This document shows, one piece after another, positions 13,608 through 60,851 of a stretch of DNA of 64,000 bases. The notes beneath the pieces are model-generated. The model was not told the DNA's origin. It was given only the letters and a program-made list of their open reading frames with translations, and ran no database searches. How positions within the stretch are numbered: position 1 is the first letter of the stretch; the number at the start of each line of letters is the position of its first letter. Both the position numbers and the translations under genes were made by a program. The DNA is from Dehalococcoidia bacterium (GTDB taxonomy: Bacteria; Chloroflexota; Dehalococcoidia; SM23-28-2; RBG-16-64-32), in the NCBI GenBank assembly GCA_035512435.1, contig DATKDX010000057.1:46829-110828 (forward strand). Direction: 5' to 3'.

Positions 13608-14969
13608 CTATGCCGGGTCTTCGCGCCAGCTGACTTCGTAGACGCGGACGGGGTCTTCGAAGCCGCGGAGGGCGCGCTCCCCGCGATCGGCGAAGAGGAA
13701 GCCGCGGCCGGCGACGAGTTCGCGGACGACGTTGGAGGCGAGGATCTCGCCACCCTTGGCCTGAGCGGCGATGCGGGCGGCGAGGATGACGGAAGTGCCG
13801 AAGAGGTCCTCCTCCTCGGCGATGGGTTCGCCGGCGTTGAGGCCGATGCGAACGTTGATTGGCGTGTCGGAATCGAGATGGGAGAAGGCGCGCTGGATGG
13901 CGATGGCGCACTGCAGGGCGCGTGCGGCCGAGCCGAACGACGCCATGAATCCGTCGCCCATGGTCTTGACCTCGGAGCCGCTGTGCTCGGCGAGGGCTTC
14001 GCGGGTAATGCGCTCGTGTTCGCGCATGACTTCTCGGGACTTCATGTCGCCAAGGCGCTGGGTCATGGCGGTGGAGCCTTCGACGTCGGTGAAGAGGATC
14101 GTGACGAGCTGGCCGGTGTCCATCGGAGCCGGCGTGCTGACGTCGGCGGCGACGGGGCCGAGCAGGCGGTCCACTGCTGCGTTCATGACGGCCACGTCAT
14201 TACCGGGGCGGCCCCATGTGTTGTCGAGCACGACGAGCTCTGCGTTGGGCAGGCGGGACGCGAGGGAGCGGCTGGTCTCGAAGTCCGGGATCGCCATGGT
14301 GCGGTGGCTGAAGACCACGGTGGGCTGGGAGACCTGGGGCAGCAGGTCACCGACGTCTGTCTGCAGGATGTACTCCTGGAAAAATCGCAGGACATATTCC
14401 TGGGTCGTCGACTCATGCAGGAAGATCATGTATTCGCGCGAAGCTTCGCTATCCCATTCGTTCATGAAGTGGGCGAGGGTGCTGCAGAAGAGGTTGTAGT
14501 CATTCTCCATCATGGAGAGGAAAGCCTTGGTCTGCGGGATCTCGGCGAACGCGGCGCCGCTAGGATAGCAATCCGTCAGCATGAGATGGGACACGCGTTC
14601 CGGCTGCGTGGCGGCAAGCTTGATGGCCACGAGGCCGTCGGACGTGGTTCCACTGAGGGCGAATTGGTCGAAACCGAGCTTATCGGCGACGGCCTCAATG
14701 TCGAGGATGAACGCGTCGGCCGTTAGCTCGCCCACGTTGCGCGATGAGAGGCCGCAGCCGCGGCAGTCGAGAGTGACAAAGCGCCGCTTGCCCCAGACGT
14801 TTTCGTACCAGTACGCGTAGAACCGGCCCAGGCGCCACTCCGCCTGCACATGGGTGAAGGGAGTGCCGCGCAAATAGATGATGGGCAGCCCGGGACCATC
14901 GCTATCGGCAAAGGCGATGCTGGCGCCGTCCGAGGTGGTCGCGTACTGGATACGCGGTTCGCTGACCAT
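13608..14969 (-). CDS. alpha/beta-hydrolase domain fused to class III adenylyl/guanylyl cyclase domain (LipJ-like), paralog 1
   Basis: N-terminal MVSEPRIQYATTSDG... alpha/beta fold; C-terminal cyclase motifs ILFTDVEGSTAM, KTMGDGFMA, RIGLNAGEP. Confidence 0.8.
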   Translation of the reverse strand: MVSEPRIQYATTSDGASIAFADSDGPGLPIIYLRGTPFTHVQAEWRLGRFYAYWYENVWGKRRFVTLDCRGCGLSSRNVGELTADAFILDIEAVADKLGFDQFALSGTTSDGLVAIKLAATQPERVSHLMLTDCYPSGAAFAEIPQTKAFLSMMENDYNLFCSTLAHFMNEWDSEASREYMIFLHESTTQEYVLRFFQEYILQTDVGDLLPQVSQPTVVFSHRTMAIPDFETSRSLASRLPNAELVVLDNTWGRPGNDVAVMNAAVDRLLGPVAADVSTPAPMDTGQLVTILFTDVEGSTAMTQRLGDMKSREVMREHERITREALAEHSGSEVKTMGDGFMASFGSAARALQCAIAIQRAFSHLDSDTPINVRIGLNAGEPIAEEEDLFGTSVILAARIAAQAKGGEILASNVVRELVAGRGFLFADRGERALRGFEDPVRVYEVSWREDPA

Positions 14970-39995: not shown

Positions 39996-39999
<4 letters not shown>

Positions 40000-41114: not shown

Positions 41115-41633
41115 GTGAACGCCATCGAACTATTCCGCGCCCAGATCAACGCCTCGCACGATATCGTCGAGGGTACTGTCAACGATCTCACGCAGGAGGC
41201 CTGCGACACACCGGTGGAGGGCACTGCGCACCCCATCGGCGCTACCTATGCGCACATCCTGAGCAGCGAGGACTTCATCGTGAACATGCTCTGTCGCGGC
41301 CAGACCCCGCTGATGATGGGCGAGTGGGCCGCCAAGACAGGAATGAGTGCTCCGCCACCAGCCCCCGGCGGCGACACTTACGGTTGGGCGACGACGGTCA
41401 AGGTCGACCTGCCACAGGCGCGCGAATACGCGAAGGCCGTCTATAAGGCGACGAACGAGTATCTCGACACGCTCTCGGAATCCGATCTGGACCGCGAAAT
41501 GGAAGTTCCGGGGTTCGGTAAGCAGCCTATGGCGTTCTTCCTGGGAATCGGGGCGCTAATCCACCCTGCGAACCATATCGGGGAGATCTCGGCGCTCAAG
41601 GGTATCCAGGGGATGAGGGGCTACCCGTTCTAA
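41115..41633 (+). CDS. DinB_2/DUF664-like (DinB superfamily) protein
   Basis: four-helix DinB-like pattern, conserved His positions; 172 aa. Confidence 0.55.
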   Translation: MNAIELFRAQINASHDIVEGTVNDLTQEACDTPVEGTAHPIGATYAHILSSEDFIVNMLCRGQTPLMMGEWAAKTGMSAPPPAPGGDTYGWATTVKVDLPQAREYAKAVYKATNEYLDTLSESDLDREMEVPGFGKQPMAFFLGIGALIHPANHIGEISALKGIQGMRGYPF

Positions 41634-47968: not shown

Positions 47969-49513
47969 GTGCAAACTCGATGTCTATCTTGCGGGGAGCT
48001 ACTCGCAGGCGTCGCTCAGCTATGCGAAGCCTGTGAGGCACGTGAGAACGCCCACGTAGCCATACCCCAACCGGCAGAGCGGCCGACGCCTGCTCCAGCC
48101 GAATCGGACACGTCCGAGCTCGTAATCAATCTTGCCTTCGTTGCCATCATCACCAGCCTGGTCCTCGGCGCCGCCGTCTGGCTGATCGCCTTGGGTGGCG
48201 CAAGCACCCTGGGCTTGAGCGGGAACGGCGACGGGCCAGAAGTCGTAATCGCGACCGGAACGCAAACCCCGGTGACCTCCCTTGTGCCACTAGGATATGA
48301 GACCGGTGACTGTGAGTTCGCTGCGCCGGACGGCGTGACGGTGGAATGCGGATACCTGACGGTCCCCCAGGACCGCGCCCAGCCCGATTTCGGCAGGGTG
48401 CGTCTGCCGGTCGCCGTCTTCAAGTCGCAAAGCGCTGAGCGCAAGGCTGACCCCATCGTATATCTGGATGGAGGGCCCGGCGGCGACACACTCGAAGGGA
48501 TCGAGTTTCTTTACCCGGCGCTTGAACCGCTTGCAGCGAACCGCGACCTTATCGTCTTCGATCAGCGCGGAGCAGGCGGATCCGTTCCCTCCCTAGCCTG
48601 CCCCGAAGTCACCAACATCAACTACGATCACATCCTCCGCCAATTCTCGATCGACGAAAGAGTAGCCCAGGATGAGGCTTCAGCCAGAAGCTGTTACAAC
48701 CGGTTGGTGGAGTCCGGCATCGACCCCACATTAGCCAGGAGCGCCGAGAGTGCCGCGGACGTCAATGACCTGAGACAGGCGCTCGGGTACGAGCAGTGGA
48801 ATCTCTACGGCGTTTCCTATGGCACAAAGCTGGCCCTGACTGTCATGCGCGACTTTCCAGAGGGTGTGCGCAGCGCCGTCCTCGATTCCGTCTATCCGCT
48901 GCAGTCCGACCTGTATTCGGAGCATCAGGCCGGCTTCGACCGCGCGTTGGGTGTCCTGTTCGAGTCGTGCGCCTCGGCCCCATCGTGCAGTAGTCCTTAC
49001 CCGGAGTTGGAACAGGCCTTCTATGACACAGTCGATCGGCTGAACGAGATCCCGGTCCAGTTTTCGATCGGTAGCATTACCGGTAGATCGCGGATAACTG
49101 CGACGATCGATGGGGTCTGGTTCAGCGCCTTCGTCTTCTCCGCCCTCTACTCAGAGGATCTGATCGCGCTACTGCCGAAGATGATCTTCGACACCAGGGA
49201 TCATAATTATCAACTGCTGAAGATCGTCGCTGATTTGCACCTGCAGGACATACAGTCCTTCAGCCAGGGCATGTACTTCTCGGTTCAGTGCGCTGAAGAG
49301 GCCCCGTTCACAGACCGGGAGGCGGTGGTTGCCGCGGCCGAAGCACACCCAAGACTGTCTGAATTCAGCGAGTACGCTGCACGATCCATATTCGCCTCCT
49401 GCGACGAGTGGCAGGCGCCCCCAGCACCCGCTAGCGAGAACGAGCCGGTGAACAGCCCTGTGCCGGCCCTTGTGCTGGCCGGGCAGTTCGATCCCATCAC
49501 ACCGCCGGAGTGA
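47969..49513 (+). CDS. membrane-anchored S33-family (TAP/proline-iminopeptidase-like) alpha/beta hydrolase with N-terminal Cys4 zinc-ribbon; reading frame interrupted by in-frame TGA (homology continues to 49698)
   Basis: CLSCG…CEAC then TM helix then hydrolase; after the TGA at 49511-49513 the same frame encodes GRLAAEGLDNSYFFEFPGLGHGV… i.e. the conserved C-terminal His-containing segment; stop replaces expected Trp (TPPEW). Confidence 0.6.
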   Translation: MQTRCLSCGELLAGVAQLCEACEARENAHVAIPQPAERPTPAPAESDTSELVINLAFVAIITSLVLGAAVWLIALGGASTLGLSGNGDGPEVVIATGTQTPVTSLVPLGYETGDCEFAAPDGVTVECGYLTVPQDRAQPDFGRVRLPVAVFKSQSAERKADPIVYLDGGPGGDTLEGIEFLYPALEPLAANRDLIVFDQRGAGGSVPSLACPEVTNINYDHILRQFSIDERVAQDEASARSCYNRLVESGIDPTLARSAESAADVNDLRQALGYEQWNLYGVSYGTKLALTVMRDFPEGVRSAVLDSVYPLQSDLYSEHQAGFDRALGVLFESCASAPSCSSPYPELEQAFYDTVDRLNEIPVQFSIGSITGRSRITATIDGVWFSAFVFSALYSEDLIALLPKMIFDTRDHNYQLLKIVADLHLQDIQSFSQGMYFSVQCAEEAPFTDREAVVAAAEAHPRLSEFSEYAARSIFASCDEWQAPPAPASENEPVNSPVPALVLAGQFDPITPPE

Positions 49514-49766: not shown

Positions 49767-51012
49767 TTGGGCCACACCCCGGAGGGAGGCAGCATCATGG
49801 TCGCCGAACGCAAGCAGGGACACGATTGGGCCATCGACTACGATATCTTCGACCCGGATTATGTCCGCGATCCCTATCCCATCTGGGATGACCTGCGTCA
49901 GCAGTGCCCCATCGCCCACACTGAGCGCTGGAGTCGTTCGTGGCTCCCCACCCGCTATGCTTGACGTTTTCGACATCGCCCAGGACCACGAGCGCTTCTC
50001 CTCACGCTCAATCACCGTTACGCCCGTCCCGCACGAACAAGCCGCCGCCGCCGACTACGGCATCAAGGCGCTACCGATATCTGTCGATCCGCCGGTCCAC
50101 ACGTGGTCGCGCAAGCTGTTGCTACCCGCGTTCAACCTGCAGTCCATGCAGAAATGGGAGCCCGTCACCCGCGACCTCTGCCGCTCGCTCGTCGACGGCT
50201 TCGTCAACGCGGGCCGCGCCGACGCTGCGGCCGGGTACGCCCAGCAGATACCCGTGCGTGTCATCGCCGGCATGCTCGGCATCCCCGCCGACATGTCTGA
50301 CACCTTCACGGACTGGGTGCGCGGCGTCCTCGAGATCGGTTTGACAAACCCCGAAGTGCGCATCGCCTCGCGCGCGAAGATCATCGGTTTCTTCCGCGAG
50401 TGCATCGCCGAGCGTCGTATCAACCCCGGTGACGACTTGATAAGCGAGATGCTGGCGGCAGAGGTCGATGGTGCGCCCGTGGCCGACGACGACATCATCG
50501 GTATCTGCACGCTACTCCTCGTCGCCGGAATCGACACGACGTGGAGCGCCATCGGCTCCTCACTCTGGCATTTGGCCACGCACGCGGACGACCGGCACCG
50601 CCTCGCCGCCGATCCCACGCTCATGGGCACCGCCGTCGAAGAGTTGCTGCGCGCCTACGCCCCCGTCACCATGGCTCGCATCGTCGCCGAAGACACCGAA
50701 GTCGCAGGCTGCCCGATGAAGGCCGGCGACCGCATCCTCATGGCTTTCCCGGCCGCCAACCGCGATCCCGAGAAGTTCCCCGATGCAGACAAGATCCTGC
50801 TGGACCGCCAGAAGAACGCGCACATCGCCTTTGGCGTCGGCATCCACCGCTGCGTCGGCTCCAACCTGGCGCGCATGGAAGTGCGGGTGGCGCTTGAGGA
50901 ATGGATGTCCCGCATCCCCGACTTCTGGATCGAAGACTCCAACGATGTGACGTGGGCTGGTGGGCAGGTACGCGGACCGCGCTCGTGTGTGGTGGTCTTT
51001 CCGGCGGCCTAG
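49767..51012 (+). pseudogene. cytochrome P450 with +1 frameshift near codon ~65
   Basis: N-terminal P450 segment (DPYPIWDDLRQQCPIAHTERWSRSWLPTRYA*) in one frame, remainder (DVFDIAQDHERFSSR … FGVGIHRCVG heme loop) in the +1 frame; a single extra T near 49961-49962 restores WLPTRYADVFDIAQDHERFSS. Confidence 0.6.
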
Positions 51013-52346
51013 CGCCAGCTCACCTGGTACACGCGGACCGGGTCCTCGAACCCCTTCGCCACGAACTCCCCGCGATCCGCGAAAAGGAACCCCTTGCCGG
51101 AACAGAGGCCGCGCACCGTGTCGGCTACGAGTATCTCGCCGCCCTCGGCTTTCGCGGCAATGCGGGCGGCGAGGATGACCGTCTCACCGAAGAGGTCGCC
51201 GTCTTCCTGGATCGGCTCGCCTGCGTTGAGGCCGACGCGTACGTGAAGCGGTTCATCGGAGGAGCGTTTAGCGAAGGCGCGTTGGAGGTCGATGCCGCAC
51301 TCGACGGCCTTGGTCACAGACGTGAACGCAGCCATGAAGCCATCCCCCATCGTCTTTACCTCGGAGCCGTTGTGAGCCTTGAGGACATCCCGTGTGACCT
51401 GCTCGTGCTCGCGAAGCACGGCGCGGCCCCTCGCGTCGCCGAGGCGATGCATCATCTCCGTGTGACCCACGAGGTCAGTAAAGAGGATCGCGCGGAATCC
51501 ACCGTCGGAGGAGGTCGGCGCCGGATGCTGGACGGGCTGTGATTCCCGGATGAAGTCGGCGATGATCTTGCTGCCCTCGAGGATCGCGTCAAGGGGCGGA
51601 ATGTGGCCGCCCTTGAGGGAGACGAACCTCGCGCCCTTGATGCCAGCTGCTACTTCCTGCGCGAACTCAAATGGCACGACCCTGTCGTCGCGATTGTGGA
51701 CGACGAGTGTCGGGCACTTGATGGCAGGGAGCAGCGGACGGACATCGATGTCGGCGGCGGCGCGCAGGATCTTGTAGGCGTCCTCCGCATTGGCGCCGGA
51801 ACGCTGGTAAGCGCCGAAGGCTTCGGGGGTCATGAACGACTCGCCTTCGCCGATGAAGAGTTCGGAGAGTAGCTTGGATGCGAGGCCCCATTCAGCCTTG
51901 AGTATGGTGAAGACGCCGTCTTGAATATCCTTTGATCCTGCCAGTCCCGCGCCATTCGCGTAGGAGCCGGAGATGACGAGGCGTGGCACCATGTCAGGAT
52001 GCCTGGCGGCGAAGGCGATGGCGATCGGACCGCCCTCGGAAAGGCCACCGAGCGCGAAGGTGTCCAGCCCCAGATCTTCGATGACAGCTTCGATGTCCAT
52101 GATGCGGGCGTCAAGGGAATAGTCATCGAGGTTGCGGCTGGAAAGGCCTGTACCGCGCTTGTCGAGGGTGACTCGCATGATCCCCTCATAGGCGTCAAAC
52201 ACGCCGAGGCCACCAAGCATCTGGTTGTCAATTTCCAGATTGCTGATCCATCCAGGCACGAAAACGTACGGTGTTCCCTCCCCGTTTACGGAATAGGCAA
52301 TGCGCACGCCATCAGGGGTGGTTACATAGCGGACTTGACCAGCCAT
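51009..52346 (-). CDS. alpha/beta-hydrolase + class III nucleotidyl cyclase fusion (LipJ-like), paralog 2
   Basis: MAGQVRYVTTPDG…; retains GLSEG nucleophile elbow; cyclase motifs ILFTDLVGHTEM, KTMGDGFMA. Confidence 0.8.
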   Translation of the reverse strand: MAGQVRYVTTPDGVRIAYSVNGEGTPYVFVPGWISNLEIDNQMLGGLGVFDAYEGIMRVTLDKRGTGLSSRNLDDYSLDARIMDIEAVIEDLGLDTFALGGLSEGGPIAIAFAARHPDMVPRLVISGSYANGAGLAGSKDIQDGVFTILKAEWGLASKLLSELFIGEGESFMTPEAFGAYQRSGANAEDAYKILRAAADIDVRPLLPAIKCPTLVVHNRDDRVVPFEFAQEVAAGIKGARFVSLKGGHIPPLDAILEGSKIIADFIRESQPVQHPAPTSSDGGFRAILFTDLVGHTEMMHRLGDARGRAVLREHEQVTRDVLKAHNGSEVKTMGDGFMAAFTSVTKAVECGIDLQRAFAKRSSDEPLHVRVGLNAGEPIQEDGDLFGETVILAARIAAKAEGGEILVADTVRGLCSGKGFLFADRGEFVAKGFEDPVRVYQVSWR

Positions 52347-53320: not shown

Positions 53321-55099
53321 ATGACTAACGACCAAATCGTTGTCTTCGCCACGCTGTTCGGGACGCTGGTCTTCTTTGTCTGGGGCCGCTGGCGCTATGA
53401 CATCGTTGCCCTGCTGGCCTTGCTCACGCTCGTTCTGGCCGATATCGTGCCCGCTGGCGACGCCTTCAGCGGCTTCGGGCACCCTGCCGTCGTTACCGTG
53501 GCCGCGGTCCTGGTCGTCAGCCGTGGACTGTTCGAGTCAGGTATCGTCGATCACATCGCGCGCCGGCTGTCCGGCCTCGCAAGCCGCCCCTCAACGCTCG
53601 TCCCCGCCGTGACCGTCCCTGCCGCAGCGTCGTCTGGATTCATGAACAACGTGGGAGCGCTAGCACTCTTCCTGCCGGTCGCCATCAACCTCGCCCGCAA
53701 GAGCGGCACACCGCCCTCCACCGTCCTTATGCCGCTCGCCTTCGGTTCCCTTCTCGGTGGCCTCACCACTCTCATCGGCACCCCGCCCAACGTCATCATC
53801 GCCACCTTCCGCGCCGAGGAGAACGGTGAAGCTTTCCGCATGTTTGACTTCACACCGGTCGGCGGCGGCATCGCCCTCGCGGGTCTCCTCTTCATCTCGC
53901 TCGTTGGCTGGCGCCTCGTTCCCCAGCGCAAAGGTGAAGCTTCCGGGTCCGATCTCTTCGAAGTCGAAGACTACATCACCGAAGTCGAGGTGCCCGAGGA
54001 CTCGAAGGCCGCCGGTAAACCAATCCGCGAACTCGAAAGCGAAGAAGGCGCAGGCGTTACCGTCGCCGCAATCATCCGCGAGGGCCGGACTCAGTCGGCG
54101 CCGCCCTCCTGGGAGATACTCCACGCGGGCGACGTCCTCGTCGTTACCGGCGACACCGAGATCATCGCCACTCTCGTCCGTGATAGCGGCCTCCAACTCG
54201 TCGGAGACCAGGAAATCGACAAGGAGTTGCTCACTTCCGGCGACGTCAGCGTCGTCGAAGCCGTCGTACGGCCGGACTCGCCGATCGAAGGGCGCACCGC
54301 GATCGGCCTCAACCTGCGCCGGCGGTTCGGCGTCAACCTCCTCGCGATCAGCCGCCAGGGCGTGCGGCCGCCCCAGACCAGGCTGGGCCGGACCGCCTTC
54401 CGCCGCGGCGACGTCCTGTTGATGCAGGGTGGCTCCGAGGCGCTGACTGAGATCATGTCCTCGCTGGGGCTCTTGCCGCTGGCCGGGCGAGAGCTGCGTA
54501 TCGGCCCGCCGCAGAAGCTCTTCCTTGCCCTCGCCATCTTCGCCATCGCCATTGCCAGCACGGCCCTCGGGCTCGTCGAGGTGCAGATCGCCCTGGTTGC
54601 CGCCGCCGTTGGCATGATCCTGGTCGGGCTGGTTACGCCACGCATCGCGTACGAGGCCATCGAGTGGCCAATCATAGTCCTGCTCGGCGCTATGATTCCG
54701 GTCGGCGGCGCGCTCCAAACGACGGGCGCGGCCACCGAAGTCGCCGGCCTCATCCTCGAACTCGGCGACGACCTCCCCGTTTGGGTCGCCCTTGCCATCG
54801 TCTTCGTAGCAACCATGTTCCTCTCGGATGTCGTAAACAACGCCGCGGCCGCCGTGCTCATGGCGCCTGTCGGACTCAGCGTCGCCGATGGCGTGGACGC
54901 ATCGGCAGATCCCTTCCTCATGGCCATTGCCATTGGCGCCTCCTGCGCCTTTCTGACTCCGATAGGCCACCAGTCCAATACCCTCGTCATGGGGCCCGGC
55001 GGCTACCGCTTCTCCGACTACTGGCGCCTCGGACTGCCACTCGAAGCTATCATCACTATCGTTGCCATACCCCTTATCCTTCTCGTATGGCCACCTTGA
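53321..55099 (+). CDS. SLC13/DASS-family anion transporter with two central TrkA-C domains
   Basis: 592 aa, N- and C-terminal TM bundles flanking cytoplasmic TrkA-C-like repeats. Confidence 0.75.
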   Translation: MTNDQIVVFATLFGTLVFFVWGRWRYDIVALLALLTLVLADIVPAGDAFSGFGHPAVVTVAAVLVVSRGLFESGIVDHIARRLSGLASRPSTLVPAVTVPAAASSGFMNNVGALALFLPVAINLARKSGTPPSTVLMPLAFGSLLGGLTTLIGTPPNVIIATFRAEENGEAFRMFDFTPVGGGIALAGLLFISLVGWRLVPQRKGEASGSDLFEVEDYITEVEVPEDSKAAGKPIRELESEEGAGVTVAAIIREGRTQSAPPSWEILHAGDVLVVTGDTEIIATLVRDSGLQLVGDQEIDKELLTSGDVSVVEAVVRPDSPIEGRTAIGLNLRRRFGVNLLAISRQGVRPPQTRLGRTAFRRGDVLLMQGGSEALTEIMSSLGLLPLAGRELRIGPPQKLFLALAIFAIAIASTALGLVEVQIALVAAAVGMILVGLVTPRIAYEAIEWPIIVLLGAMIPVGGALQTTGAATEVAGLILELGDDLPVWVALAIVFVATMFLSDVVNNAAAAVLMAPVGLSVADGVDASADPFLMAIAIGASCAFLTPIGHQSNTLVMGPGGYRFSDYWRLGLPLEAIITIVAIPLILLVWPP

Positions 55100-55947
55100 C
55101 GACGCCAACCATCAGCCGGATCCTCGTCGCGCTCGATGGCTCCGAGCGGGGGGAGAGTGTCTTGCCGCTCGTCCGCAAGATCGCCGCCGCCACCGGCGCC
55201 ACCATCATTCTCGTCCGCGGCATACCCGAGCTCTCCACTCCCAACCCCGAGATTGTCTACCAGTACATCAAGGAACAGTCCCCAAAAATCCGCGCTTATC
55301 TGGGCAACATGCGCCGCCGGCTCAAAGCTGGTGGCCTCACGGCAACCACCCGTCAACTCCACGGCGCCATGGCCGAATCCATCGCCGCTCTCGCCCAGAA
55401 GGAGCGCGCGGACCTCATCGCCATCGCCACCCGCGGCAGGTCGGGCGTCAAACGTGCCATCCTCGGCAGCACCGCCACCCGTATCGTCCGCCTGGCCGCC
55501 TGTCCCGTCCTCGTCCTCAAGCACGACGAGCACGGCGCCACACAGGCGCCCACGTTCGAATGTGTCCTCGTGTCGCTCGACGGCACTCAGCTCGCCGAGT
55601 CTATCCTCCCCGCTACGCGCGCTCTGGCAGACCTCGACTCAGGCACCCTCGTCCTCTGTCACCACATCTCCGGTAACGACGACCTCGAAGAGGCTCAGAG
55701 GTACCTCCACCACACCGCCGAGACCCTCAGAAACCAGGGCGCTTCCGTCGAGAGCAAGCTCTACAGAGGCAGCCGCGCCGAGGCCGCTCTGGCAGTTGCT
55801 GAAGAAATTGACGCCGGACTTATCGCCGTCTCGACACGCGGCCGCTCCGCGCTCGGGCGCATACTCAAGGGCAGCGCGGCCGACGAGGTCCTCACACAGA
55901 CCAACCGCCCCTGCCTCACAATCAATTCCTCGGCAGAACCCGCCTGA
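55087..55947 (+). CDS. universal stress protein (tandem UspA domains)
   Basis: two USP repeats (ILVALDGSERG… and CVLVSLDGTQLAE…), ATP-binding G-x2-G-x9-GS-like motifs. Confidence 0.8.
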   Translation: MATLTTPTISRILVALDGSERGESVLPLVRKIAAATGATIILVRGIPELSTPNPEIVYQYIKEQSPKIRAYLGNMRRRLKAGGLTATTRQLHGAMAESIAALAQKERADLIAIATRGRSGVKRAILGSTATRIVRLAACPVLVLKHDEHGATQAPTFECVLVSLDGTQLAESILPATRALADLDSGTLVLCHHISGNDDLEEAQRYLHHTAETLRNQGASVESKLYRGSRAEAALAVAEEIDAGLIAVSTRGRSALGRILKGSAADEVLTQTNRPCLTINSSAEPA

Positions 55948-55994: not shown

Positions 55995-56573
55995 ATGTCA
56001 GGCTCAGACCCATTCGTACAGTCACTCCGCAACCGCATCCGCGCCATGAACATCATCTGGGAGCGAGCCGTCAGCGACATGACGCTAGACCAGATGAACC
56101 ACCACGAGCGCGAGGGCGTCCTGCCCATCGCCTTCAGCTTCACCCACTACATCCAGGCCCAGGACCAGTCAGCCAGCCTCTTCTTCCGTAAAGAGCCGCC
56201 GCTCTGGGTGCGCGGCGGCTGGGCGGAAAAGACCGGCGTATCCATCAACGCCCTCGGGCGCGAGGAGACCGTCAACGAGATGCAGAACCAGCGCATCGGC
56301 GACCTCGACGCCTGGAAAGCCTACCAGGCCGCAGTCATCGCCCAGACGGATGAAGTGCTCGACAGCCTGACCGCAGACCTCCTCCTGGAAGTCATCTTCC
56401 CTCAGCTGCCACCGAACATGCAGAACATCTTCTGTGCCATCGTCATTGGGCCCGGCAGCCCGCTGCGCAAGCTGGACGTCCTCGAGTGCTTCGTCTACCA
56501 GCACGGCCTCCGCCACATGGGCGAAGTCGAACACGGCCGCGCCCTCGTCGGGCTCGGCGGCATGACGAGCTGA
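55995..56573 (+). CDS. DinB/DUF664-like superfamily protein
   Basis: weak pattern similarity to DinB_2 family; 192 aa. Confidence 0.45.
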   Translation: MSGSDPFVQSLRNRIRAMNIIWERAVSDMTLDQMNHHEREGVLPIAFSFTHYIQAQDQSASLFFRKEPPLWVRGGWAEKTGVSINALGREETVNEMQNQRIGDLDAWKAYQAAVIAQTDEVLDSLTADLLLEVIFPQLPPNMQNIFCAIVIGPGSPLRKLDVLECFVYQHGLRHMGEVEHGRALVGLGGMTS

Positions 56574-56583
56574 GTACGAGCTG

Positions 56584-57888
56584 ATGGAACCACGCATCCA
56601 GTACGCCAGGACGAGCGATGGGGTGAACATCGCGTATTCGACGGTGGGCGAGGGCCGTCCGTTTATCGCGATAGCGCCTCCTGGTTTCAATCATGCCGAA
56701 CTGAACTGGCAGATGTTTGGCGCGCTGAATGAAGCCCTTGCCGCCATGTTTCACGTCGTTAACTACGATTCGCGCGGAAATGGTCTGTCCGACCGGAGCG
56801 CGGTCGACTTCTCGATGGACGCGATGATCCGCGATCTTGAAGCGGTGGTCGAACGAAGCGGTTTCGAAACGTTCGTGCTGGTTTCCTGGGCCACCGCAGT
56901 GCCGATCGGCGTGACCTACGCAGTTACTCACCCGGAGCGGGTATCTCACCTGATCCTGATCGACGGTTACGCCAGCGTCTCGGACTTTGCGGAGTCAACC
57001 GTTTACAAGACGGGGGTGGCGCTGCTAGACGCGGACTGGGTGCTCTTCACGGAGACCTTCGCGCAGGTGCTGTGGGCATGGCCGGACCCGGAGTTTGCGA
57101 GGCGTTACGCTGAGTTCATACGCGCGTGCTGTGAACCGGAGGCGATGCGAACCCTCTGGAAGGCATGGGAAAGCCTCGACGTCTCCGCGCTCCTGCCCAG
57201 CGTAACCACGCCCACACTCATCGTTCACAATAAGAACAACCGCTGGTTTCCTGTAGACGTTGGCCAGCGCCTCGCTGCTGCCGTTCCGAATGCACGCTTG
57301 ACCCTTATAGACGACATGTCATGGGCTCCCGTGCCGAACCTCATCGATGCGTTCGTAGGCGAGGGCCAGCCGCGGGAGCCGTCGCTTCCCTCCGGCATGA
57401 CCGCTATCCTCTTCGCCGACATCGTCGACTCCACCGCGCTCACCGAGCGCCTCGGTGATACCGCCTTCCGCGCGAAGGCGAGGGAGCTGGACGGGGCGCT
57501 GCAAGCGGTGATCCGTGAGGGAGGCGGCACGCCTGTGGAAGGCAAGCTGCTGGGCGATGGGGTGCTGGCGGTATTTACGAGCGCGCGGCAGGCGATCGCA
57601 GCGGCGCTCAAGTGCGGCGTGGCGGGCGAGGAGGGCGGCCTGCCGCTGCATCTGGGCATACATGCTGGCGACGTGATTGAAGAGGATGGCAACGTGTTTG
57701 GCGGAGCGGTGAACATTGCGGCGCGGATTGCGGATGAGTCGGCACCGGGGGAGGTGCTCGTGTCGCGCACCGTCACAGACCTGGCGCGGACGTCCGCCGG
57801 CGTTGCATTCGAAGACCGTGGCGAGCACGAACTGAAGGGCGTCGCCGGGCCACAGTGCGTGTTCGCGGTGCGGAAGGACGGCGAGTGA
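56584..57888 (+). CDS. alpha/beta-hydrolase + class III nucleotidyl cyclase fusion (LipJ-like), paralog 3
   Basis: MEPRIQYARTSDGVNIAY…; cyclase motifs ILFADIVDSTALTERLGD, GKLLGDGVLAVF, VNIAARIADES. Confidence 0.8.
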   Translation: MEPRIQYARTSDGVNIAYSTVGEGRPFIAIAPPGFNHAELNWQMFGALNEALAAMFHVVNYDSRGNGLSDRSAVDFSMDAMIRDLEAVVERSGFETFVLVSWATAVPIGVTYAVTHPERVSHLILIDGYASVSDFAESTVYKTGVALLDADWVLFTETFAQVLWAWPDPEFARRYAEFIRACCEPEAMRTLWKAWESLDVSALLPSVTTPTLIVHNKNNRWFPVDVGQRLAAAVPNARLTLIDDMSWAPVPNLIDAFVGEGQPREPSLPSGMTAILFADIVDSTALTERLGDTAFRAKARELDGALQAVIREGGGTPVEGKLLGDGVLAVFTSARQAIAAALKCGVAGEEGGLPLHLGIHAGDVIEEDGNVFGGAVNIAARIADESAPGEVLVSRTVTDLARTSAGVAFEDRGEHELKGVAGPQCVFAVRKDGE

Positions 57889-59252
57889 TGGAGCCGCGCA
57901 TTCAATACACCAAAACGACTGATGGAGTAAATATAGCCTACTACACGATTGGTGACGGGCCTCCGTTGGTCGTCATGTCACCTCGGATAGCGACGAATAT
58001 TGAGGACGAATGGACCATCCCGCCGCTTCAAAGCTTGTTCAGAGCGACTGCGATGACGTTCACAGTTGTGCGGTATGACATGCGAGGATGCGGCTTATCC
58101 GACCGAAACATAACTGACTTCTCACCGGCTGCAATGATGAGGGATCTGGAGGCGCTGGCAGATGTCGCGGCACCCGGGTCCTTTGCGCTCCTGGCCTCCG
58201 GTACAAGTATACCTACCGCGCTCACCTACGCCGCTTCTCACCCAGACCGTGTGTCGGATCTAATGCTATGGGCCGTACTCCTGGGCGCGAAGCCTGAGCC
58301 GCTTGATCGCCTATTCCGACTGGCGCGGACAGATTGGACTCTCGCCAGCGAGTCCTTCCAGTCCGCGATCGACAGCTGGTCTAACAACGACGACGCTCGC
58401 CGGTACGCGGCAATGATGCGTCGCTCCGTTACCCCCGACCTGTTCATCCGCCACGAAACGGCGAGTAACTCGTGGGACATGACTGAGATCGCACCCCAGG
58501 TGAGGGCGCGAACGCTTGTGATGCATCCTCGCGATCATCCCTACTACCCAACGGAGGGTGCGCGGAAGCTAGCCGCTGCGATTCCTGGCGCACGCCTGGT
58601 CCTCTCCGAGGGAAACACCGTGCTGGTGCCTGGCCCGCAGGCGATCGCGGCGATGGCTGAGTTCCTCTCCCATCTCTCAGGTGTCACCGTGACCTACGCT
58701 GCCAGCCACGGCCCCGAGGCCCGCCGAGATGGTTTCACAGGCCGAGCTGACAGATCCGGCACCGCCGTCATCCTCTTCGCCGACATCGTCGACTCCACCG
58801 CCCTCACCGAACGCCTCGGCGACACCGCCTTCCGCGAGAAGGCCCGCGACCTGGACGTCACGCTGCGCAACATCATCCGCGAAGCGGGTGGCACCCCCGT
58901 CGAAGGCAAACTCCTCGGCGACGGCGTCCTCGCCGTCTTCAGCAGCGCCCGCCAGGCCATCGAGGCCGCACTCAAGTGCGGGGCTGCTGGCGAACAAGGA
59001 GGCCTACCCCTTCACCTGGGCATCCACGCTGGCGACGTGATTGAAGAGGACGGCAACGTGTTCGGCGGCGCCGTCAACACAGCGTCCCGCATCAGCGGGC
59101 TGTCGGCGCCAGGCGAGGTGCTGGTTTCGGATACGGTGCGATCGCTGGCGCGAACGAGCGCGGGGGTGACGTTCGAAGACCGTGGCGAGCAGGAGTTGAA
59201 GGGCGTGGGGGAGCCGGTACGGGTCTTTGCGGTTCGCGAGGCAACTGCCTGA
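57888..59252 (+). CDS. alpha/beta-hydrolase + class III nucleotidyl cyclase fusion (LipJ-like), paralog 4
   Basis: ATG overlaps preceding TGA (TGATG); MEPRIQYTKTTDGVNIAY…; same cyclase motifs. Confidence 0.8.
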   Translation: MEPRIQYTKTTDGVNIAYYTIGDGPPLVVMSPRIATNIEDEWTIPPLQSLFRATAMTFTVVRYDMRGCGLSDRNITDFSPAAMMRDLEALADVAAPGSFALLASGTSIPTALTYAASHPDRVSDLMLWAVLLGAKPEPLDRLFRLARTDWTLASESFQSAIDSWSNNDDARRYAAMMRRSVTPDLFIRHETASNSWDMTEIAPQVRARTLVMHPRDHPYYPTEGARKLAAAIPGARLVLSEGNTVLVPGPQAIAAMAEFLSHLSGVTVTYAASHGPEARRDGFTGRADRSGTAVILFADIVDSTALTERLGDTAFREKARDLDVTLRNIIREAGGTPVEGKLLGDGVLAVFSSARQAIEAALKCGAAGEQGGLPLHLGIHAGDVIEEDGNVFGGAVNTASRISGLSAPGEVLVSDTVRSLARTSAGVTFEDRGEQELKGVGEPVRVFAVREATA

Positions 59253-60568
59253 TGGAGCCGCGCATCCAGTACGCAAAGACGAGCGATGGGGTGAACATCG
59301 CCTTCACGGTCGTAGGAAGCGGCCCGCCCGTGCTCGTCTCCGGCGACCTCGCGGACGCTCACGTCCAGCTCATGTGGCAGCACTCACCCTATGCCCCCTT
59401 CTACGAACGCCTGACGGAGCGGTATACGGTGATCAAGTTCGACAGTCGCGGCTACGGATTATCCGACAGAGATGTGGAGGATTTTTCGCTCGATTCGCTA
59501 CTTCTGGACGTGAACGCAGTCGCCGATCAGCTTGACTTGAGTAGTTTCGGTGTACTGGGTCTCTTCGGCGGGGGTCCGCTTGCAATCGCTTTTGCGGCGC
59601 GCCGTCCCGATCAGGTCACCAGGCTGTGTCTGGTCGGCACTTCTGTGCGAACACGTGAGACCCTCGCGCGCCACCGAGCCTTTCGCATCCCCTCTCTAAT
59701 GAGGGAAGACTGGGATCTGTTCTTGCAAAACCTTGCCGCCGTCAACTACGGGTTCGGCAAGGAGGAGTCCGCGCGGACCGCGGAGTTCCTCGCCGCGGCT
59801 CTGGATCAGAACACGCTGCTCCAGTCCGCGAGCTTCGTGAATGCGTGGGATGTCACGGACTCGCTGCCTCTCGTACGCTGCCCGACGCTGATCGTTCACT
59901 ACAGCGGGATCCACTACCTGACGATGGATATGGCACGCGAGCTGGCCGCCGGGATCCCGGATTCACATTTGCTGGTGCTGGATTATGCTTCGGCTCTTCG
60001 TGACGATCAGGTCGTCGCGGCCGTAGTCGACTTCTTTGCGGACGAGGAGGCGCGGGCGGACCCGACCCTCCCCTCCGGCATGACCGCCATCTTCGTCGCC
60101 GACATCGTCGAGTCTACGGCCCTCACCGAGCGCTTAGGCGATACGGCCTTCCGCGAACGAGCGCGAGCGCTTGACGGCTCGCTGCGCACCATCATCCGCG
60201 AGGCTGGCGGTACACCCGTCGAGGGCAAGCTCCTCGGCGACGGCGTCCTCGCTACGTTCGCCTCCGCCCGCCAGGCGATCGAGGCGGCGCTGCGCTGCGG
60301 GTCTGCGGGAGACGAATGCGGCCTCCCCCTCCACCTCGGCCTACACGCCGGCGACGTCATCCGAGAAGACGACAACGTGTACGGTGGCGCGGTGAACATT
60401 GCCGCACGCGTGTCGGCACTGGCCGCACCTGGCGAAGTACTCGTCTCCCAGACCGTGCGTGATCTGGCCCGCACATCCGCCGCCGTAACCTTCGAAGACG
60501 CCGGAGAACGCTCGCTCAAGGGTGTCAGCGAACCCCTGCGCCTGTGGCGCGTCGCCCCTACCATATAA
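59252..60568 (+). CDS. alpha/beta-hydrolase + class III nucleotidyl cyclase fusion (LipJ-like), paralog 5
   Basis: ATG overlaps preceding TGA (TGATG); MEPRIQYAKTSDGVNIAF…; same cyclase motifs. Confidence 0.8.
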   Translation: MEPRIQYAKTSDGVNIAFTVVGSGPPVLVSGDLADAHVQLMWQHSPYAPFYERLTERYTVIKFDSRGYGLSDRDVEDFSLDSLLLDVNAVADQLDLSSFGVLGLFGGGPLAIAFAARRPDQVTRLCLVGTSVRTRETLARHRAFRIPSLMREDWDLFLQNLAAVNYGFGKEESARTAEFLAAALDQNTLLQSASFVNAWDVTDSLPLVRCPTLIVHYSGIHYLTMDMARELAAGIPDSHLLVLDYASALRDDQVVAAVVDFFADEEARADPTLPSGMTAIFVADIVESTALTERLGDTAFRERARALDGSLRTIIREAGGTPVEGKLLGDGVLATFASARQAIEAALRCGSAGDECGLPLHLGLHAGDVIREDDNVYGGAVNIAARVSALAAPGEVLVSQTVRDLARTSAAVTFEDAGERSLKGVSEPLRLWRVAPTI

Positions 60569-60806
60569 TCTCTACCCCGTCGCGGTGGCGTCCGCCATTC
60601 CCCCTGCTTCCCGATCCCTGAACCTGAACCTGCTTTAACCGTTCTCTTACCGAACTCACCCCGCCTGTTTACCCCACCATGATGACCAATGCCGGAAAAT
60701 ACATTCTGGTGTTAAGTTGCGTTGACTCCGCTCCTGGATGTGGTTGCGAGTGATCGGATTGATGGCCGGAGCGAGTTGAAATAGCGCAACTTGGTGGTTG
60801 GGGGGC

Positions 60807-60842
60807 GACGGGCCGTCTCTTGGGGACGGCCCGTCTCCTTTT
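60807..60842 (+). terminator. intrinsic terminator: perfect 11-bp stem gacgggccgtc / gacggcccgtc, 7-nt loop, followed by tcctttt
   Basis: seen directly in sequence ~240 nt downstream of cyclase operon. Confidence 0.55.
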
Positions 60843-60851
60843 GCGCGGGAG

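What the first reader, a model, noticed from the sequence alone, without database searches (positions are those of the whole stretch)
56584..60568. Three tandem, translationally coupled alpha/beta-hydrolase-adenylyl-cyclase fusion genes
Three consecutive ~435-465-aa genes each fuse an N-terminal alpha/beta-hydrolase-fold domain (all begin MEPRIQY…DGVNIA) to a C-terminal class III nucleotidyl cyclase domain. Their junctions are TGATG stop/start overlaps at 57886-57890 and 59250-59254, and a single clean terminator follows at 60807-60842. In all three the canonical G-x-S-x-G nucleophile elbow of the hydrolase domain appears lost (VSWAT, ASGTS, GLFGG at the expected position). The cyclase metal-binding Asp residues, the adenine-specifying Lys and the transition-state Asn are retained. 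This suggests the hydrolase fold has been repurposed as a ligand-sensing or regulatory module on an active cyclase. With the two unlinked paralogs at 13608-14969 and 51009-52346 this family is present five times in 64 kb. Such arrays are reminiscent of mycobacterial LipJ (Rv1900c) but the tandem organisation looks undescribed.
Basis: partly seen in the sequence, partly recalled or inferred. Interest (0 to 1): 0.75.

Follow-up and report, generated by a model that had tools for sequence, protein, structure and literature searches.

The report
Tandem dead-hydrolase adenylyl cyclase genes
Three overlapping genes in a soil Dehalococcoidia genome each join a catalytically dead but well-conserved esterase-like domain to an apparently active cAMP-making domain, and belong to a large, unstudied family of probable chemical sensors that this bacterial lineage keeps in arrays of up to six.

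Summary
ORFs 56584-57888, 57888-59252 and 59252-60568 (+) each encode an alpha/beta-hydrolase fold fused to a class III cyclase. They are joined by TGATG overlaps with Shine-Dalgarno-like motifs and followed by a strong terminator. All three lack the Ser-Asp-His triad but keep the cyclase metal Asp pair, Lys, Asn and Arg.

The dead hydrolase domain is not decaying: in P1 and P2 orthologs it is as conserved as the cyclase domain, or more. Sites that distinguish the paralogs lie in the cap and active-site loops, never in the cyclase.

The arrangement is not unique. Chloroflexota MAGs carry runs of 2-6 such genes, mostly with 1-nt overlaps, and only 7 of 129 copies keep a full triad (unlinked paralog P5 is one). 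Cyclase domains are more alike within an array or genome than between genomes, while the N-domains diverge.

Best reading: a battery of cytosolic one-component sensor cyclases with diversified non-catalytic ligand or regulatory domains. Heterodimerisation between neighbours is possible.

They share LipJ's architecture but are not LipJ equivalogs (about 160 bits against a cutoff of 800). This is a new variant of a known kind. Ligand, product and co-transcription are untested.

The parts
56584..57888 (+). P1: alpha/beta-hydrolase-fold (aa 1-262, triad-less, Ala103 at nucleophile elbow) + disordered linker (aa 263-270) + class III cyclase (aa 271-434; D279, K321, D325, N370, N377, R381)
   Evidence: 100% identical to P0001 from a Dehalococcoidia MAG
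57888..59252 (+). P2: same architecture, 454 aa; Gly at nucleophile position (ASGTS), His at acid position, no catalytic His; cyclase signature D-K-D-N-N-R
   Evidence: orthologs 83% identical over full length; N-domain 90%
59252..60568 (+). P3: same architecture, 438 aa; Phe at nucleophile position (GLFGG); cyclase signature D-K-D-N-N-R
57886..57890 (+). TGATG stop/start overlap P1/P2 (1-nt overlap)
   Evidence: the same junction type accounts for 25 of about 46 junctions in relatives' arrays
57872..57878 (+). Shine-Dalgarno-like GGAAGGA inside the 3' end of P1, 9 nt before the P2 start
   Evidence: SD-like motif in 34/39 close junctions against 20% background, p=5e-19
59250..59254 (+). TGATG stop/start overlap P2/P3
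59238..59241 (+). Shine-Dalgarno-like GAGG inside the 3' end of P2, 10 nt before the P3 start
60807..60844 (+). Intrinsic terminator: 13-bp G+C-rich hairpin plus T-tract, 239 nt after the P3 stop and 17 nt from the stop of the convergent MBL-fold gene
   Evidence: dG -33.9 kcal/mol, z -3.7
55995..56573 (+). DinB_2-like gene ending 10 nt before the P1 start; possibly the same transcription unit
   Evidence: spacing only, not conserved next to the family in most relatives
55087..55947 (+). Tandem universal-stress-protein (2 x Usp) gene; its start overlaps the upstream transporter's end by 13 nt; possibly the same transcription unit
53321..55099 (+). CitMHS/TrkA_C-domain transporter gene, first gene of the same-strand run
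13608..14969 (-). P4: unlinked paralog, cyclase subtype B (D-K-D-D-I-R), Thr at nucleophile position, triad lost
51009..52346 (-). P5: unlinked paralog, cyclase subtype B, intact G-L-S-E-G / Asp221 / His248; probably a true bifunctional LipJ-like enzyme

Best explanation
The three genes encode cytosolic one-component signalling enzymes. In each, a class III nucleotidyl cyclase domain, most likely making cAMP as a dimer, is controlled by an N-terminal alpha/beta-hydrolase-fold domain. That domain has lost its catalytic triad and now acts as a non-catalytic binding or regulatory module.

The genes are expressed together from one transcript, with translation of each reinitiating at the stop of the previous one.

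They are one instance of a lineage-wide birth-and-death expansion in Chloroflexota/Dehalococcoidia. In that expansion the N-domains diversify in the cap and pocket loops, giving different inputs. The cyclase output domains stay nearly identical within a genome, and especially between array neighbours.

Shown here: the architecture, the triad loss, the conserved cyclase catalytic residues, purifying selection on the dead domain, where the divergent sites lie, the recurrence of arrays and junction types, and the within-genome similarity of cyclase domains.

Inferred: ligand sensing, cAMP as the product, co-transcription, and the direction of regulation.
For: Architecture and fold: (pLDDT 92.7).

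Triad lost in P1-P3. Family-wide, Ser is at the nucleophile column in 15/129 copies and a complete triad survives in 7/129.

Cyclase residues: metal Asp 129/129 and 128/129, Lys 123/129, Arg 128/129.

The dead domain is constrained. P1 nearest orthologs have N 78% against C 77% identity, and the nucleophile position is the most variable site. P2 orthologs have N 84-90% against C 78-82%.

Sites conserved within but different between the P1 and P2 orthogroups number 0/172 in the cyclase, 9/74 in the cap, 8/62 in the C-terminal core with the acid and His loops, and 3/126 in the N-terminal core (Fisher p=6e-7).

Structural neighbours of the N-domain include the ligand-receptor hydrolases KAI2, D14 and HTL as well as esterases.

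Arrays: 20 pairs, 8 triples and one 4-, two 5- and one 6-gene run among 82 sequences (the window plus 81 loci). A 1-nt overlap is the commonest junction, and SD-like motifs precede 34/39 close junctions.

The duplication is old: synonymous sites are near saturation, and each paralog has its own orthologs.

An active cyclase with a non-canonical transition-state residue has a precedent in Ma1120, where Ala replaces Asn (PMC4215837).
Against: No ligand, activity or transcript data exist.

The Lys/Asn specificity pair of the trio is non-canonical, so the product (cAMP, cGMP or both) is uncertain.

No cNMP-binding receptor or cAMP phosphodiesterase gene lies in the 64-kb window.

The AF2 pTM of 0.65 and the disordered linker give no defined interdomain interface, so the coupling mechanism is unknown.

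The promoter scan is at chance level, and sigma-70 consensus may not apply to this phylum.

Conservation of the N-domain would equally fit a protein-protein interaction or purely autoinhibitory role.
Confidence: 0.55

Rival explanations
1. The array members do not act alone. Because class III cyclases are obligate dimers, translationally coupled neighbours with near-identical cyclase domains assemble into heterodimers or mixed oligomers. Each active site is then controlled by two different N-domains, giving combinatorial signal integration like a split version of the mammalian C1-C2 pseudo-heterodimer. This extends the best explanation and does not exclude it.
For: Overlapping starts with SD motifs favour co-translation in one place.

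At matched N-domain divergence (25-45% identity), median cyclase-domain identity is 87.5% for array neighbours, 79.9% for same-genome non-neighbours and 67.5% for copies from different genomes (p=8e-14 and 4e-17).

The four-gene test with L082 shows N-domains grouping by orthology but cyclase domains grouping by genome.

Single polypeptides with layouts N-C-N, N-C-C, C-N-C and N-N-C exist in the family.

Arrays in relatives often mix the two cyclase subtypes.
Against: Every copy carries a complete catalytic set on its own, so no complementation is needed.

Array composition and order are not conserved. The P1 ortholog is 4th of 5 genes in L001 and 3rd of the complete copies in L002's six-gene run. 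The P2 ortholog is solitary in L084, and in L082 P3 is replaced by a different cyclase architecture.

Similarity within a genome can arise from gene conversion between tandem repeats with no functional meaning.

Some of the multi-unit proteins may be frameshift or gene-calling artefacts.
Confidence: 0.25
2. The N-domain is not a small-molecule sensor. It is a constitutive autoinhibitory, scaffolding or protein-interaction domain, for example docking onto a partner protein or membrane, and the paralogs differ in their partners, not their ligands.
For: Purifying selection and paralog-specific conserved surface or cap residues fit protein-protein recognition as well as ligand binding.

Non-catalytic alpha/beta-hydrolase proteins that act through protein contacts are known (NDRG, neuroligins, CGI-58; own knowledge). 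Weak Pfam Ndr hits appear for P1 and P4.

From memory, the N-terminal domains of other mycobacterial cyclases such as Rv1264 are autoinhibitory.
Against: The divergent conserved sites map to the canonical pocket elements (the cap helices and the loops after strands 7 and 8) and are not spread over the surface.

No conserved partner gene accompanies the arrays.
Confidence: 0.15
3. The cyclase-like domain of the trio does not make cAMP. With a Lys/Asn pair in place of Lys/Asp it may make cGMP or be promiscuous. Alternatively it may serve mainly as a nucleotide-binding or dimerisation module of a regulator, as suggested by relatives that add a C-terminal LuxR-type DNA-binding domain.
For: The substrate-specifying Asp is Asn in all 72 type A copies.

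L002's whole array, P0013, P0089, P0090 and P0355 carry a GerE HTH after the cyclase domain.

Rv1900c and Ma1120 both have guanylyl cyclase side activity (Ma1120: PMC4215837; Rv1900c: PMC4886424).

From memory, Rv0386 uses a Gln/Asn pair and has GC side activity.
Against: Both metal Asp, Lys, Asn and Arg are essentially invariant, which argues for catalysis.

Guanylyl cyclases normally have Glu, not Lys, at the first position (PMC4215837).

The window's three proteins have no HTH.
Confidence: 0.12
4. The hydrolase domains are still enzymes that use non-canonical catalytic residues, or else the genes are decaying duplicates.
For: Some alpha/beta hydrolases use Asp or Cys nucleophiles (own knowledge). 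P1 and P2 have Ser residues one or two positions from the elbow.
Against: The elbow residue is Ala, Gly or Phe. The His is absent in all three, and the acid is absent or displaced.

The elbow position is the least conserved site in the P1 orthogroup.

Decay is excluded by intact ORFs, by 84-90% N-domain identity among P2 orthologs and by a pLDDT of 92.7.
Confidence: 0.03

Closest known systems
LipJ / Rv1900c of Mycobacterium tuberculosis (NCBIfam NF058673 'bifunctional lipase/adenylate cyclase LipJ'; PDB 1ybt/1ybu for the cyclase domain)
   Same: The architecture is collinear: N-terminal alpha/beta-hydrolase fold plus C-terminal short class III cyclase domain of about 160 aa. All five window proteins align to the LipJ model end to end. 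The P1 model's cyclase domain superposes on 1ybu with TM 0.91, rmsd 1.8 A and 38% identity.
   Different: Scores are 158-182 bits against a family cutoff of 800, so these are not equivalogs. LipJ is listed as a characterised esterase (review PMC10865251), whereas P1-P4 lack the triad. At the cyclase specificity and transition-state positions LipJ has Asn...Asp...His...Arg and the trio has Lys...Asn...Asn...Arg. To my knowledge LipJ is a single gene and not part of an array. LipJ's own triad could not be scored here.
Ma1120 of Mycobacterium avium (PDB 4wp3 and others)
   Same: It is the best sequence match among solved structures for the cyclase domain (E 1.8e-21). It is an active adenylyl cyclase with Lys and Asp and a non-canonical residue (Ala164) replacing the transition-state Asn (PMC4215837). 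That is a precedent for P4 and P5, which have Ile there.
   Different: Ma1120 has no alpha/beta-hydrolase domain. The trio keeps the Asn but changes the Asp.
PDB 3mr7, cyclase domain of an 'adenylate/guanylate cyclase/hydrolase, alpha/beta fold family' protein
   Same: It shows that the same fusion exists and is annotated in other bacteria (E 9e-15).
   Different: Only the cyclase domain was solved. I know of no functional study, and no array context is known.
Receptor-type and non-catalytic alpha/beta hydrolases (plant KAI2/D14/HTL, GID1; Bacillus RsbQ; NDRG)
   Same: The N-domain model has the same fold with a four-helix cap, and KAI2, D14, HTL1 and RsbQ appear among its structural or sequence neighbours. 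They share the concept of a hydrolase fold used to perceive a small molecule and pass the signal to an output. The family expansion with pocket diversification resembles the HTL expansion in parasitic plants (own knowledge).
   Different: KAI2, D14 and RsbQ keep an active triad and hydrolyse their ligand. GID1 lost only the His. Here all three residues are gone, and the output domain is fused in the same polypeptide. The resemblance is in how it may work, not in family membership.
Mycobacterial cyclase-STAND ATPase-LuxR HTH proteins (Rv0386 type)
   Same: A gene of this architecture (cyclase, NB-ARC/STAND, HTH_77; 890 aa) directly follows the P1-like/P2-ortholog pair in L082 and L083. Some family members carry a GerE HTH. 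From memory, Rv0386 also has Asn at the second specificity position.
   Different: The domain order and regulatory module differ, and there is no hydrolase fold.
Mammalian membrane adenylyl cyclases (C1-C2 pseudo-heterodimer)
   Same: Two paralogous class III domains cooperate. Relatives of this family include N-C-C and N-C-N single chains.
   Different: In C1-C2 the catalytic residues are split between the two domains. Here every copy is complete.

Membership tests
Class III nucleotidyl cyclase (Pfam PF00211) | Profile match above the gathering score | tested here: met
   P1 35.8, P2 41.8, P3 27.6, P4 68.4 and P5 61.8 bits against a cutoff of 21.9
Class III nucleotidyl cyclase (Pfam PF00211) | Cyclase homology domain fold | tested here: met
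   The AF2 model (pLDDT 92.7) matches 1ybu_B with TM 0.91 and rmsd 1.8 A, and 5d0e_B with TM 0.90
Class III nucleotidyl cyclase (Pfam PF00211) | Two metal-binding Asp | tested here: met
   D279 and D325 are invariant in the five paralogs. Across the family they are present in 129/129 and 128/129 copies
Class III nucleotidyl cyclase (Pfam PF00211) | Adenine-specifying Lys/Asp pair | tested here: inconclusive
   Lys321 is present in all. The Asp position is Asn370 in P1-P3 and Asp in P4 and P5
Class III nucleotidyl cyclase (Pfam PF00211) | Transition-state Asn/Arg pair | tested here: met
   N377 and R381 are present in P1-P3. P4 and P5 have Ile for Asn, which has a precedent in the active Ma1120 (Ala)
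Class III nucleotidyl cyclase (Pfam PF00211) | Cyclase activity and product identity | not testable with these tools
   This needs an enzyme assay
Alpha/beta-hydrolase fold superfamily (PF00561) | Profile match and fold | tested here: met
   P1 56, P2 26.9 and P3 44.5 bits against a cutoff of 25.8. Foldseek gives TM 0.7-0.8 (target-normalised) to esterases, enol-lactonase and PhaZ
Alpha/beta-hydrolase fold superfamily (PF00561) | Catalytic Ser(Asp/Cys)-acid-His triad with a G-x-S-x-G elbow | tested here: not met
   The elbow residue is Ala103 (P1), Gly (P2), Phe (P3) and Thr (P4), and His is absent in all four. Only P5 has S103, D221 and H248
LipJ equivalog (NCBIfam NF058673) | Whole-protein score at or above the curated cutoff (800 bits) | tested here: not met
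   158-182 bits
LipJ equivalog (NCBIfam NF058673) | Collinear hydrolase-cyclase two-domain architecture | tested here: met
   P2 residues 3-448 match model positions 8-448 of 449. P5 residues 4-440 match positions 9-447
LipJ equivalog (NCBIfam NF058673) | Esterase-competent hydrolase domain | tested here: not met
   The triad is absent in P1-P4. LipJ is reported as an esterase in review PMC10865251. LipJ's own residues could not be retrieved
LipJ equivalog (NCBIfam NF058673) | LipJ-type cyclase residues (Asn for Lys, His for Asn) | tested here: not met
   The 1ybt alignment shows N...D...H...R in LipJ against K...N...N...R in the trio
Pycsar defence cyclase (PycC) | Strong PycC profile match and an adjacent effector gene | tested here: not met
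   Only partial hits of 17-26 bits (E 1e-6 to 8e-4), which is generic class III homology. No TM or TIR effector lies nearby, and the setting is core chromosome
Operon with translational coupling | Same strand, overlapping stop/start, SD upstream of the downstream start, no internal terminator | tested here: met
Operon with translational coupling | A single transcript spanning the genes | not testable with these tools
   This needs RT-PCR or metatranscriptome reads across 57888 and 59252

The most novel reading that the evidence does not exclude
The arrays form a combinatorial chemosensory system. Dozens of triad-dead hydrolase-fold receptor domains per genome have diversified pockets. Their cyclase domains are kept interchangeable within a genome by gene conversion or co-adaptation, so that co-translated neighbours can form mixed dimers whose shared active sites integrate two different inputs into one cAMP output. 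This would be a bacterial parallel both to the plant KAI2/D14 receptor expansions and to the mammalian C1-C2 pseudo-heterodimer. It would also make cAMP a major integrating signal in soil Dehalococcoidia, a group for which I found no description of cAMP signalling in the papers I could search.
Probability: 0.2. Interest if true: 0.75.

Novelty: new variant of a known kind. Interest (0 to 1): 0.5.

Why it matters
The alpha/beta-hydrolase-cyclase fusion has been known since the M. tuberculosis genome (LipJ). What the hydrolase half does for the cyclase has never been settled.

This family offers a natural experiment. In 1,659 clusters at 50% identity (E <= 1e-30), mostly from uncultured Chloroflexota, the hydrolase chemistry has been discarded in about 95% of the copies examined. 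The fold is nevertheless kept under selection and diversified in its pocket region. That argues that its role in these proteins is perception or regulation, not catalysis.

If ligands can be found, these proteins would be a new class of cytosolic small-molecule receptors with a simple enzymatic read-out. That would be useful as biosensors and for learning what soil Dehalococcoidia sense.

The contrast between diverging input domains and cyclase domains held similar within a genome is a clear case of domain-specific concerted evolution. It raises the testable idea of mixed cyclase dimers.

In practical terms, it also shows that automatic annotation truncates or mislabels these genes. P2 is called at 278 aa, and the orthologs' N-domains fall below Pfam thresholds.

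Tried and rejected
(1) Recent gene conversion as the reason the trio's cyclase domains are 73-80% identical. This is rejected for this locus, because synonymous differences are near saturation in both domains (pS 0.60-0.64 against 0.72-0.78). Older or continuing homogenisation at family level is supported.

(2) Full-length LipJ retrieval. A search with the Rv1900c cyclase-domain sequence rebuilt from the PDB alignment returned only short cyclase-only proteins of at most 88% identity. The proposed five-paralog-against-LipJ triad alignment could therefore be done only for the cyclase domain.

(3) The Rv1900c structure paper (Sinha et al. 2005) is not held. The main text of the 2004 actinobacterial cyclase survey is not held either. 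Statements about LipJ's holoenzyme behaviour are therefore omitted or marked as memory.

(4) Pycsar or other defence-system cyclase: only weak generic hits.

(5) A conserved partner gene. The USP, DinB, MBL, transporter and GNAT neighbours are not conserved next to the family in relatives. DinB appears beside it in 2 other loci of the first 81 and again in L084.

(6) A cAMP receptor or phosphodiesterase in the window: none found.

(7) A structured RNA in the 239-nt stretch between the P3 stop and the terminator: no Rfam match beyond chance.

(8) The sigma-70 promoter scan is at chance level.

(9) A fixed heteromeric complex with conserved gene order: rejected, because the order and composition of arrays vary.

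(10) The afdb50 fold library was unavailable.

(11) The literature searches for prior description of this expansion or of pseudo-hydrolase cyclases found nothing relevant. That is not proof of absence.

Full report
**1. What is in the sequence**

The window carries three same-strand ORFs at 56584-57888 (P1, 434 aa), 57888-59252 (P2, 454 aa) and 59252-60568 (P3, 438 aa). The stop of each overlaps the next start as TGATG, at 57886-57890 and 59250-59254. A 13-bp G+C-rich hairpin followed by a T-tract lies at 60807-60844. Its folding energy is -33.9 kcal/mol, and none of 200 shuffles folds as well (z = -3.7).

Pfam finds Abhydrolase_1 followed by Guanylate_cyc above gathering thresholds in all three proteins. 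It finds the same in the two unlinked paralogs at 13608-14969(-) (P4) and 51009-52346(-) (P5). P1 is 100% identical to a protein from a Dehalococcoidia MAG contig of 119 kb.

The surrounding genes are ordinary chromosome: DnaB, L9, Ppk1, PurL/PurQ, ProB, an ABC transporter, a P450 and an enoyl-CoA hydratase. This is not a mobile island.

Upstream on the same strand lie a CitMHS/TrkA_C transporter (53321-55099), a tandem-USP gene (55087-55947) and a DinB_2-like gene (55995-56573). The spacings are -13, 47 and 10 nt. The transcription unit may therefore be six genes long. That rests on spacing alone.

**2. Catalytic residues**

P5's G-L-S-E-G, Asp221 and His248 align with the catalytic Ser, Asp and His of solved esterases and haloperoxidases. 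Against that reference, P1 has Ala103 at the nucleophile position (S-W-A-T-A), Asn at the acid position and no His. P2 has Gly (A-S-G-T-S), His at the acid position and no catalytic His. P3 has Phe (G-L-F-G-G) and neither acid nor His. P4 has Thr and no His.

The AlphaFold model of P1 has mean pLDDT 92.7. It places residue 103 exactly at the strand 97-102 / helix 103-115 elbow and shows a four-helix cap at 139-195. There is no shifted triad.

In the cyclase domain, both metal Asp (D279, D325), the Lys (K321), the transition-state Asn (N377) and the Arg (R381) are present in P1-P3. The second specificity residue, canonically Asp, is Asn370. P4 and P5 keep that Asp but have Ile instead of the transition-state Asn.

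Ma1120 is the best-matching solved cyclase. It is an active adenylyl cyclase with Ala at that position, and restoring Asn drastically reduces its AC activity and abolishes its residual GC activity (PMC4215837). LipJ has Asn, Asp, His and Arg at the four positions (PMC4886424).

**3. The family**

P1 has more than 5,338 homologs at E <= 1e-10 among the candidates scored. An exhaustive search of 1.84 billion representatives gives 1,659 clusters at 50% identity with E <= 1e-30.

A scan of species-representative genomes found more than 560 copies. The best 80 loci are almost all Chloroflexota/Dehalococcoidia MAGs, and up to 11 copies per genome were recovered from those loci alone.

I called every copy in the window and 81 loci. 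There are 149 ORFs with both domains. Same-strand runs comprise 65 singletons, 20 pairs, 8 triples, one run of 4, two of 5 and one of 6. A 2.78-Mb contig has five in a row, including a 77% ortholog of P1.

The 1-nt overlap accounts for 25 of about 46 junctions. An SD-like tetramer lies 5-18 nt upstream of the downstream start in 34 of 39 close junctions, against a 20% background (p = 5e-19). Both window junctions have one. The tandem, overlapping arrangement is thus the norm for this family and not a peculiarity of this locus.

**4. The hydrolase domain is dead but maintained**

Among 129 complete copies, the nucleophile column is Ser in 15, and a full G-x-S-x-G/Asp/His set survives in 7 (P5 is one). 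Six of those seven are of cyclase subtype B. By contrast, the cyclase metal Asp, Lys and Arg are present in 123-129 of 129 copies.

The dead domain is not decaying. In P1's nearest orthologs the N-domain is 78% identical and the cyclase domain 77%, while the nucleophile position itself is the least conserved site, with the top residue at 19%. In P2's orthologs the N-domain (84-90%) is more conserved than the cyclase domain (78-82%). This includes residues 1-176, which the deposited annotation omits (P0247, 278 aa).

I then looked at positions conserved within each of the P1 and P2 orthogroups but different between them. They number 0 of 172 in the cyclase, 3 of 126 in the N-terminal core, 9 of 74 in the cap and 8 of 62 in the C-terminal core. 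The last group includes the loops that normally carry the acid and the His (Fisher p = 6e-7 for cap plus C-core against the rest). These are the elements that shape the substrate pocket in alpha/beta hydrolases.

Structural neighbours of the N-domain include esterases, enol-lactonase and PhaZ. They also include the receptor hydrolases KAI2, D14 and HTL.

**5. Two cyclase subtypes and modular evolution**

The copies fall into two subtypes. Type A has D-K-D-N-N-R (64 exact copies; the trio). Type B has D-K-D-D-[I/Q]-R (40 copies; P4 and P5). Only 11 copies are fully canonical. Type A is one clade in a cyclase-domain tree, with 72 of 72 sequences in a clade of 73. Arrays in relatives often combine several type A genes with one type B gene.

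Within the trio the N-domains are 32-38% identical and the cyclase domains 73-80%. Synonymous differences are near saturation in both, so the triplication is old and there has been no recent conversion here.

The family shows a systematic pattern, however. For type A pairs with 25-45% N-domain identity, median cyclase-domain identity is 87.5% for array neighbours (n=23), 79.9% for same-genome non-neighbours (n=63) and 67.5% for copies from different genomes (n=2256). The p-values are 8e-14 and 4e-17, but the pairs are not independent.

A four-gene test against L082, which has a P1-like gene and the 83% P2 ortholog with the same 1-nt overlap, confirms discordant histories. N-domains group by orthology (0.90 and 0.60, against 0.37-0.38 for paralogs). 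Cyclase domains group by genome (0.80 and 0.86, against 0.74 and 0.78), and codon identity is raised as well.

The output domain is therefore kept similar within a genome, by gene conversion or by co-adaptation, while the input domain diverges.

**6. Array dynamics**

Order and content are not conserved. The P1 ortholog is 4th of 5 genes in L001 and the 3rd of the five complete copies in L002's six-gene run. In L082 and L083 the gene after the P2 ortholog is an 890-aa cyclase-STAND-HTH protein, not a P3 ortholog. In L084 the P2 ortholog is solitary, and a frameshifted fusion pseudogene lies nearby.

All five complete genes of L002, and several metagenomic proteins, add a C-terminal GerE/LuxR HTH. 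Representatives with N-C-N, N-N-C, N-N-N-C, N-C-C and C-N-C layouts exist. This is birth-and-death evolution with domain shuffling.

**7. Mechanism**

The best-supported reading (confidence about 0.55) is as follows. Each protein is a one-component cytosolic sensor. A non-catalytic hydrolase-fold domain binds a ligand, or otherwise regulates. Through a flexible linker (residues 263-270, pLDDT below 50) it controls formation or closure of the cyclase dimer, which most likely makes cAMP. The three genes are made together from one mRNA.

Steps shown and steps inferred are separated in the Best explanation section.

The main add-on rival (about 0.25) is that neighbours form mixed dimers. Coupling, the within-genome similarity of the dimerising domain and the existence of multi-unit polypeptides favour it. 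The completeness of every copy's catalytic set and the variable array composition argue against an obligate complex.

Other rivals are a protein-interaction or purely autoinhibitory N-domain, a product other than cAMP or a regulator-type role, and residual hydrolase activity or decay. The last is effectively excluded.

**8. Comparison with what is known**

The architecture is that of LipJ/Rv1900c. NCBIfam's LipJ equivalog model aligns end to end but scores 158-182 bits against a cutoff of 800. LipJ is listed as a characterised esterase (PMC10865251) and has different cyclase specificity residues. Membership as LipJ is therefore not met, while membership in the class III cyclase and alpha/beta-hydrolase-fold superfamilies is met.

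PDB 3mr7 shows that the fusion is annotated elsewhere too. Pycsar membership is not met. Functionally, the nearest analogies are the receptor-type or non-catalytic alpha/beta hydrolases. That is a resemblance in how it may work, not a family assignment.

I found no paper describing the triad-less form, its expansion in Dehalococcoidia or the arrays. The library is incomplete, and key cyclase papers are not held.

**9. Verdict**

The pseudo-hydrolase interpretation passes every test that could be run here. The sensor function, the product and co-transcription remain untested.

It is a new variant of a known kind (a LipJ-like fusion), not a new kind. It sits in a large uncharacterised family with an unusual evolutionary signature. 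Interest 0.5.

Noticed in passing
window 57888-59252 (P2): The deposited annotation of this contig calls only the C-terminal 278 aa (P0247, starting at Met177). Orthologs are 90% identical over residues 1-176 and start MEPRIQY, so the gene is truncated in the public record. The P2 orthologs' N-domains also fall below precomputed Pfam thresholds.
   Followed up: yes
L002 6828-14875; proteins P0013, P0089, P0090, P0355: These relatives carry a third, C-terminal GerE/LuxR-type HTH after the cyclase domain. All five complete genes of the L002 array have it, including a 68% ortholog of P1, and their HTH tails are almost identical. The layout is hydrolase fold, cyclase, then DNA-binding domain.
   Followed up: partly
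L082/L083 6679-12042: A P1-like gene and the 83% P2 ortholog, joined by the same 1-nt overlap, are followed after 10 nt by an 890-aa cyclase-NB-ARC/STAND-HTH_77 gene (Rv0386-like architecture) in place of P3.
   Followed up: partly
L084/L085 10806-12136: An Abhydrolase ORF and a cyclase ORF overlap in different frames. This looks like a frameshifted (pseudogenised) fusion gene near a solitary P2 ortholog, which is itself flanked by DinB and GNAT genes as in the window.
   Followed up: no
family-wide (window plus L001-L081): Cyclase domains of type A copies are far more alike between array neighbours (median 87.5%) and within a genome (79.9%) than between genomes (67.5%) at matched N-domain divergence. 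N- and C-domain histories are discordant in a four-gene test. This is domain-restricted concerted evolution or co-adaptation.
   Followed up: partly
proteins P0359, P0360, P0285, P0305, P0249, P0500: Multi-unit polypeptides occur in the family with layouts N-C-N, N-N-N-C, N-N-C, N-C-C (10 member sequences), C-N-C and C-N-N. Some may be read-through or gene-calling artefacts, others real fusions.
   Followed up: partly
window 55087-55947: A tandem universal-stress-protein gene sits immediately upstream in the same-strand run. A mycobacterial USP (Rv1636) is a documented cAMP-binding protein (PMC11107214). The adjacency is not conserved in relatives, so this is only a lead to a possible cAMP receptor.
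   Followed up: partly
window 33674-35335: A 7TM-7TMR_HD plus HD-domain protein (PgpH-like architecture). From memory, the Listeria homolog is a cyclic-di-AMP phosphodiesterase.
   Followed up: no
window 5447-9910: Polyphosphate kinase 1, a CYTH-CHAD protein and a NUDIX/histidine-phosphatase fusion sit in a row with overlapping ends. This is a polyphosphate-related cluster.
   Followed up: no
window 60569-60806: A 239-nt non-coding stretch lies between the P3 stop and the terminator. It is visibly less G+C-rich than the coding flanks and has no Rfam match above chance.
   Followed up: partly
window 39996-40811 and 47969-49513: Two further stand-alone alpha/beta-hydrolase genes are present. One is a strong canonical Abhydrolase_1 (E 4e-39). 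The other has a TAP-like C-terminal domain. The window therefore holds seven hydrolase-fold genes in 64 kb.
   Followed up: no
window 41115-41633 and 55995-56573: Two DinB_2-superfamily genes are present. DinB-like genes also lie next to family members in L012, L037 and L084.
   Followed up: partly
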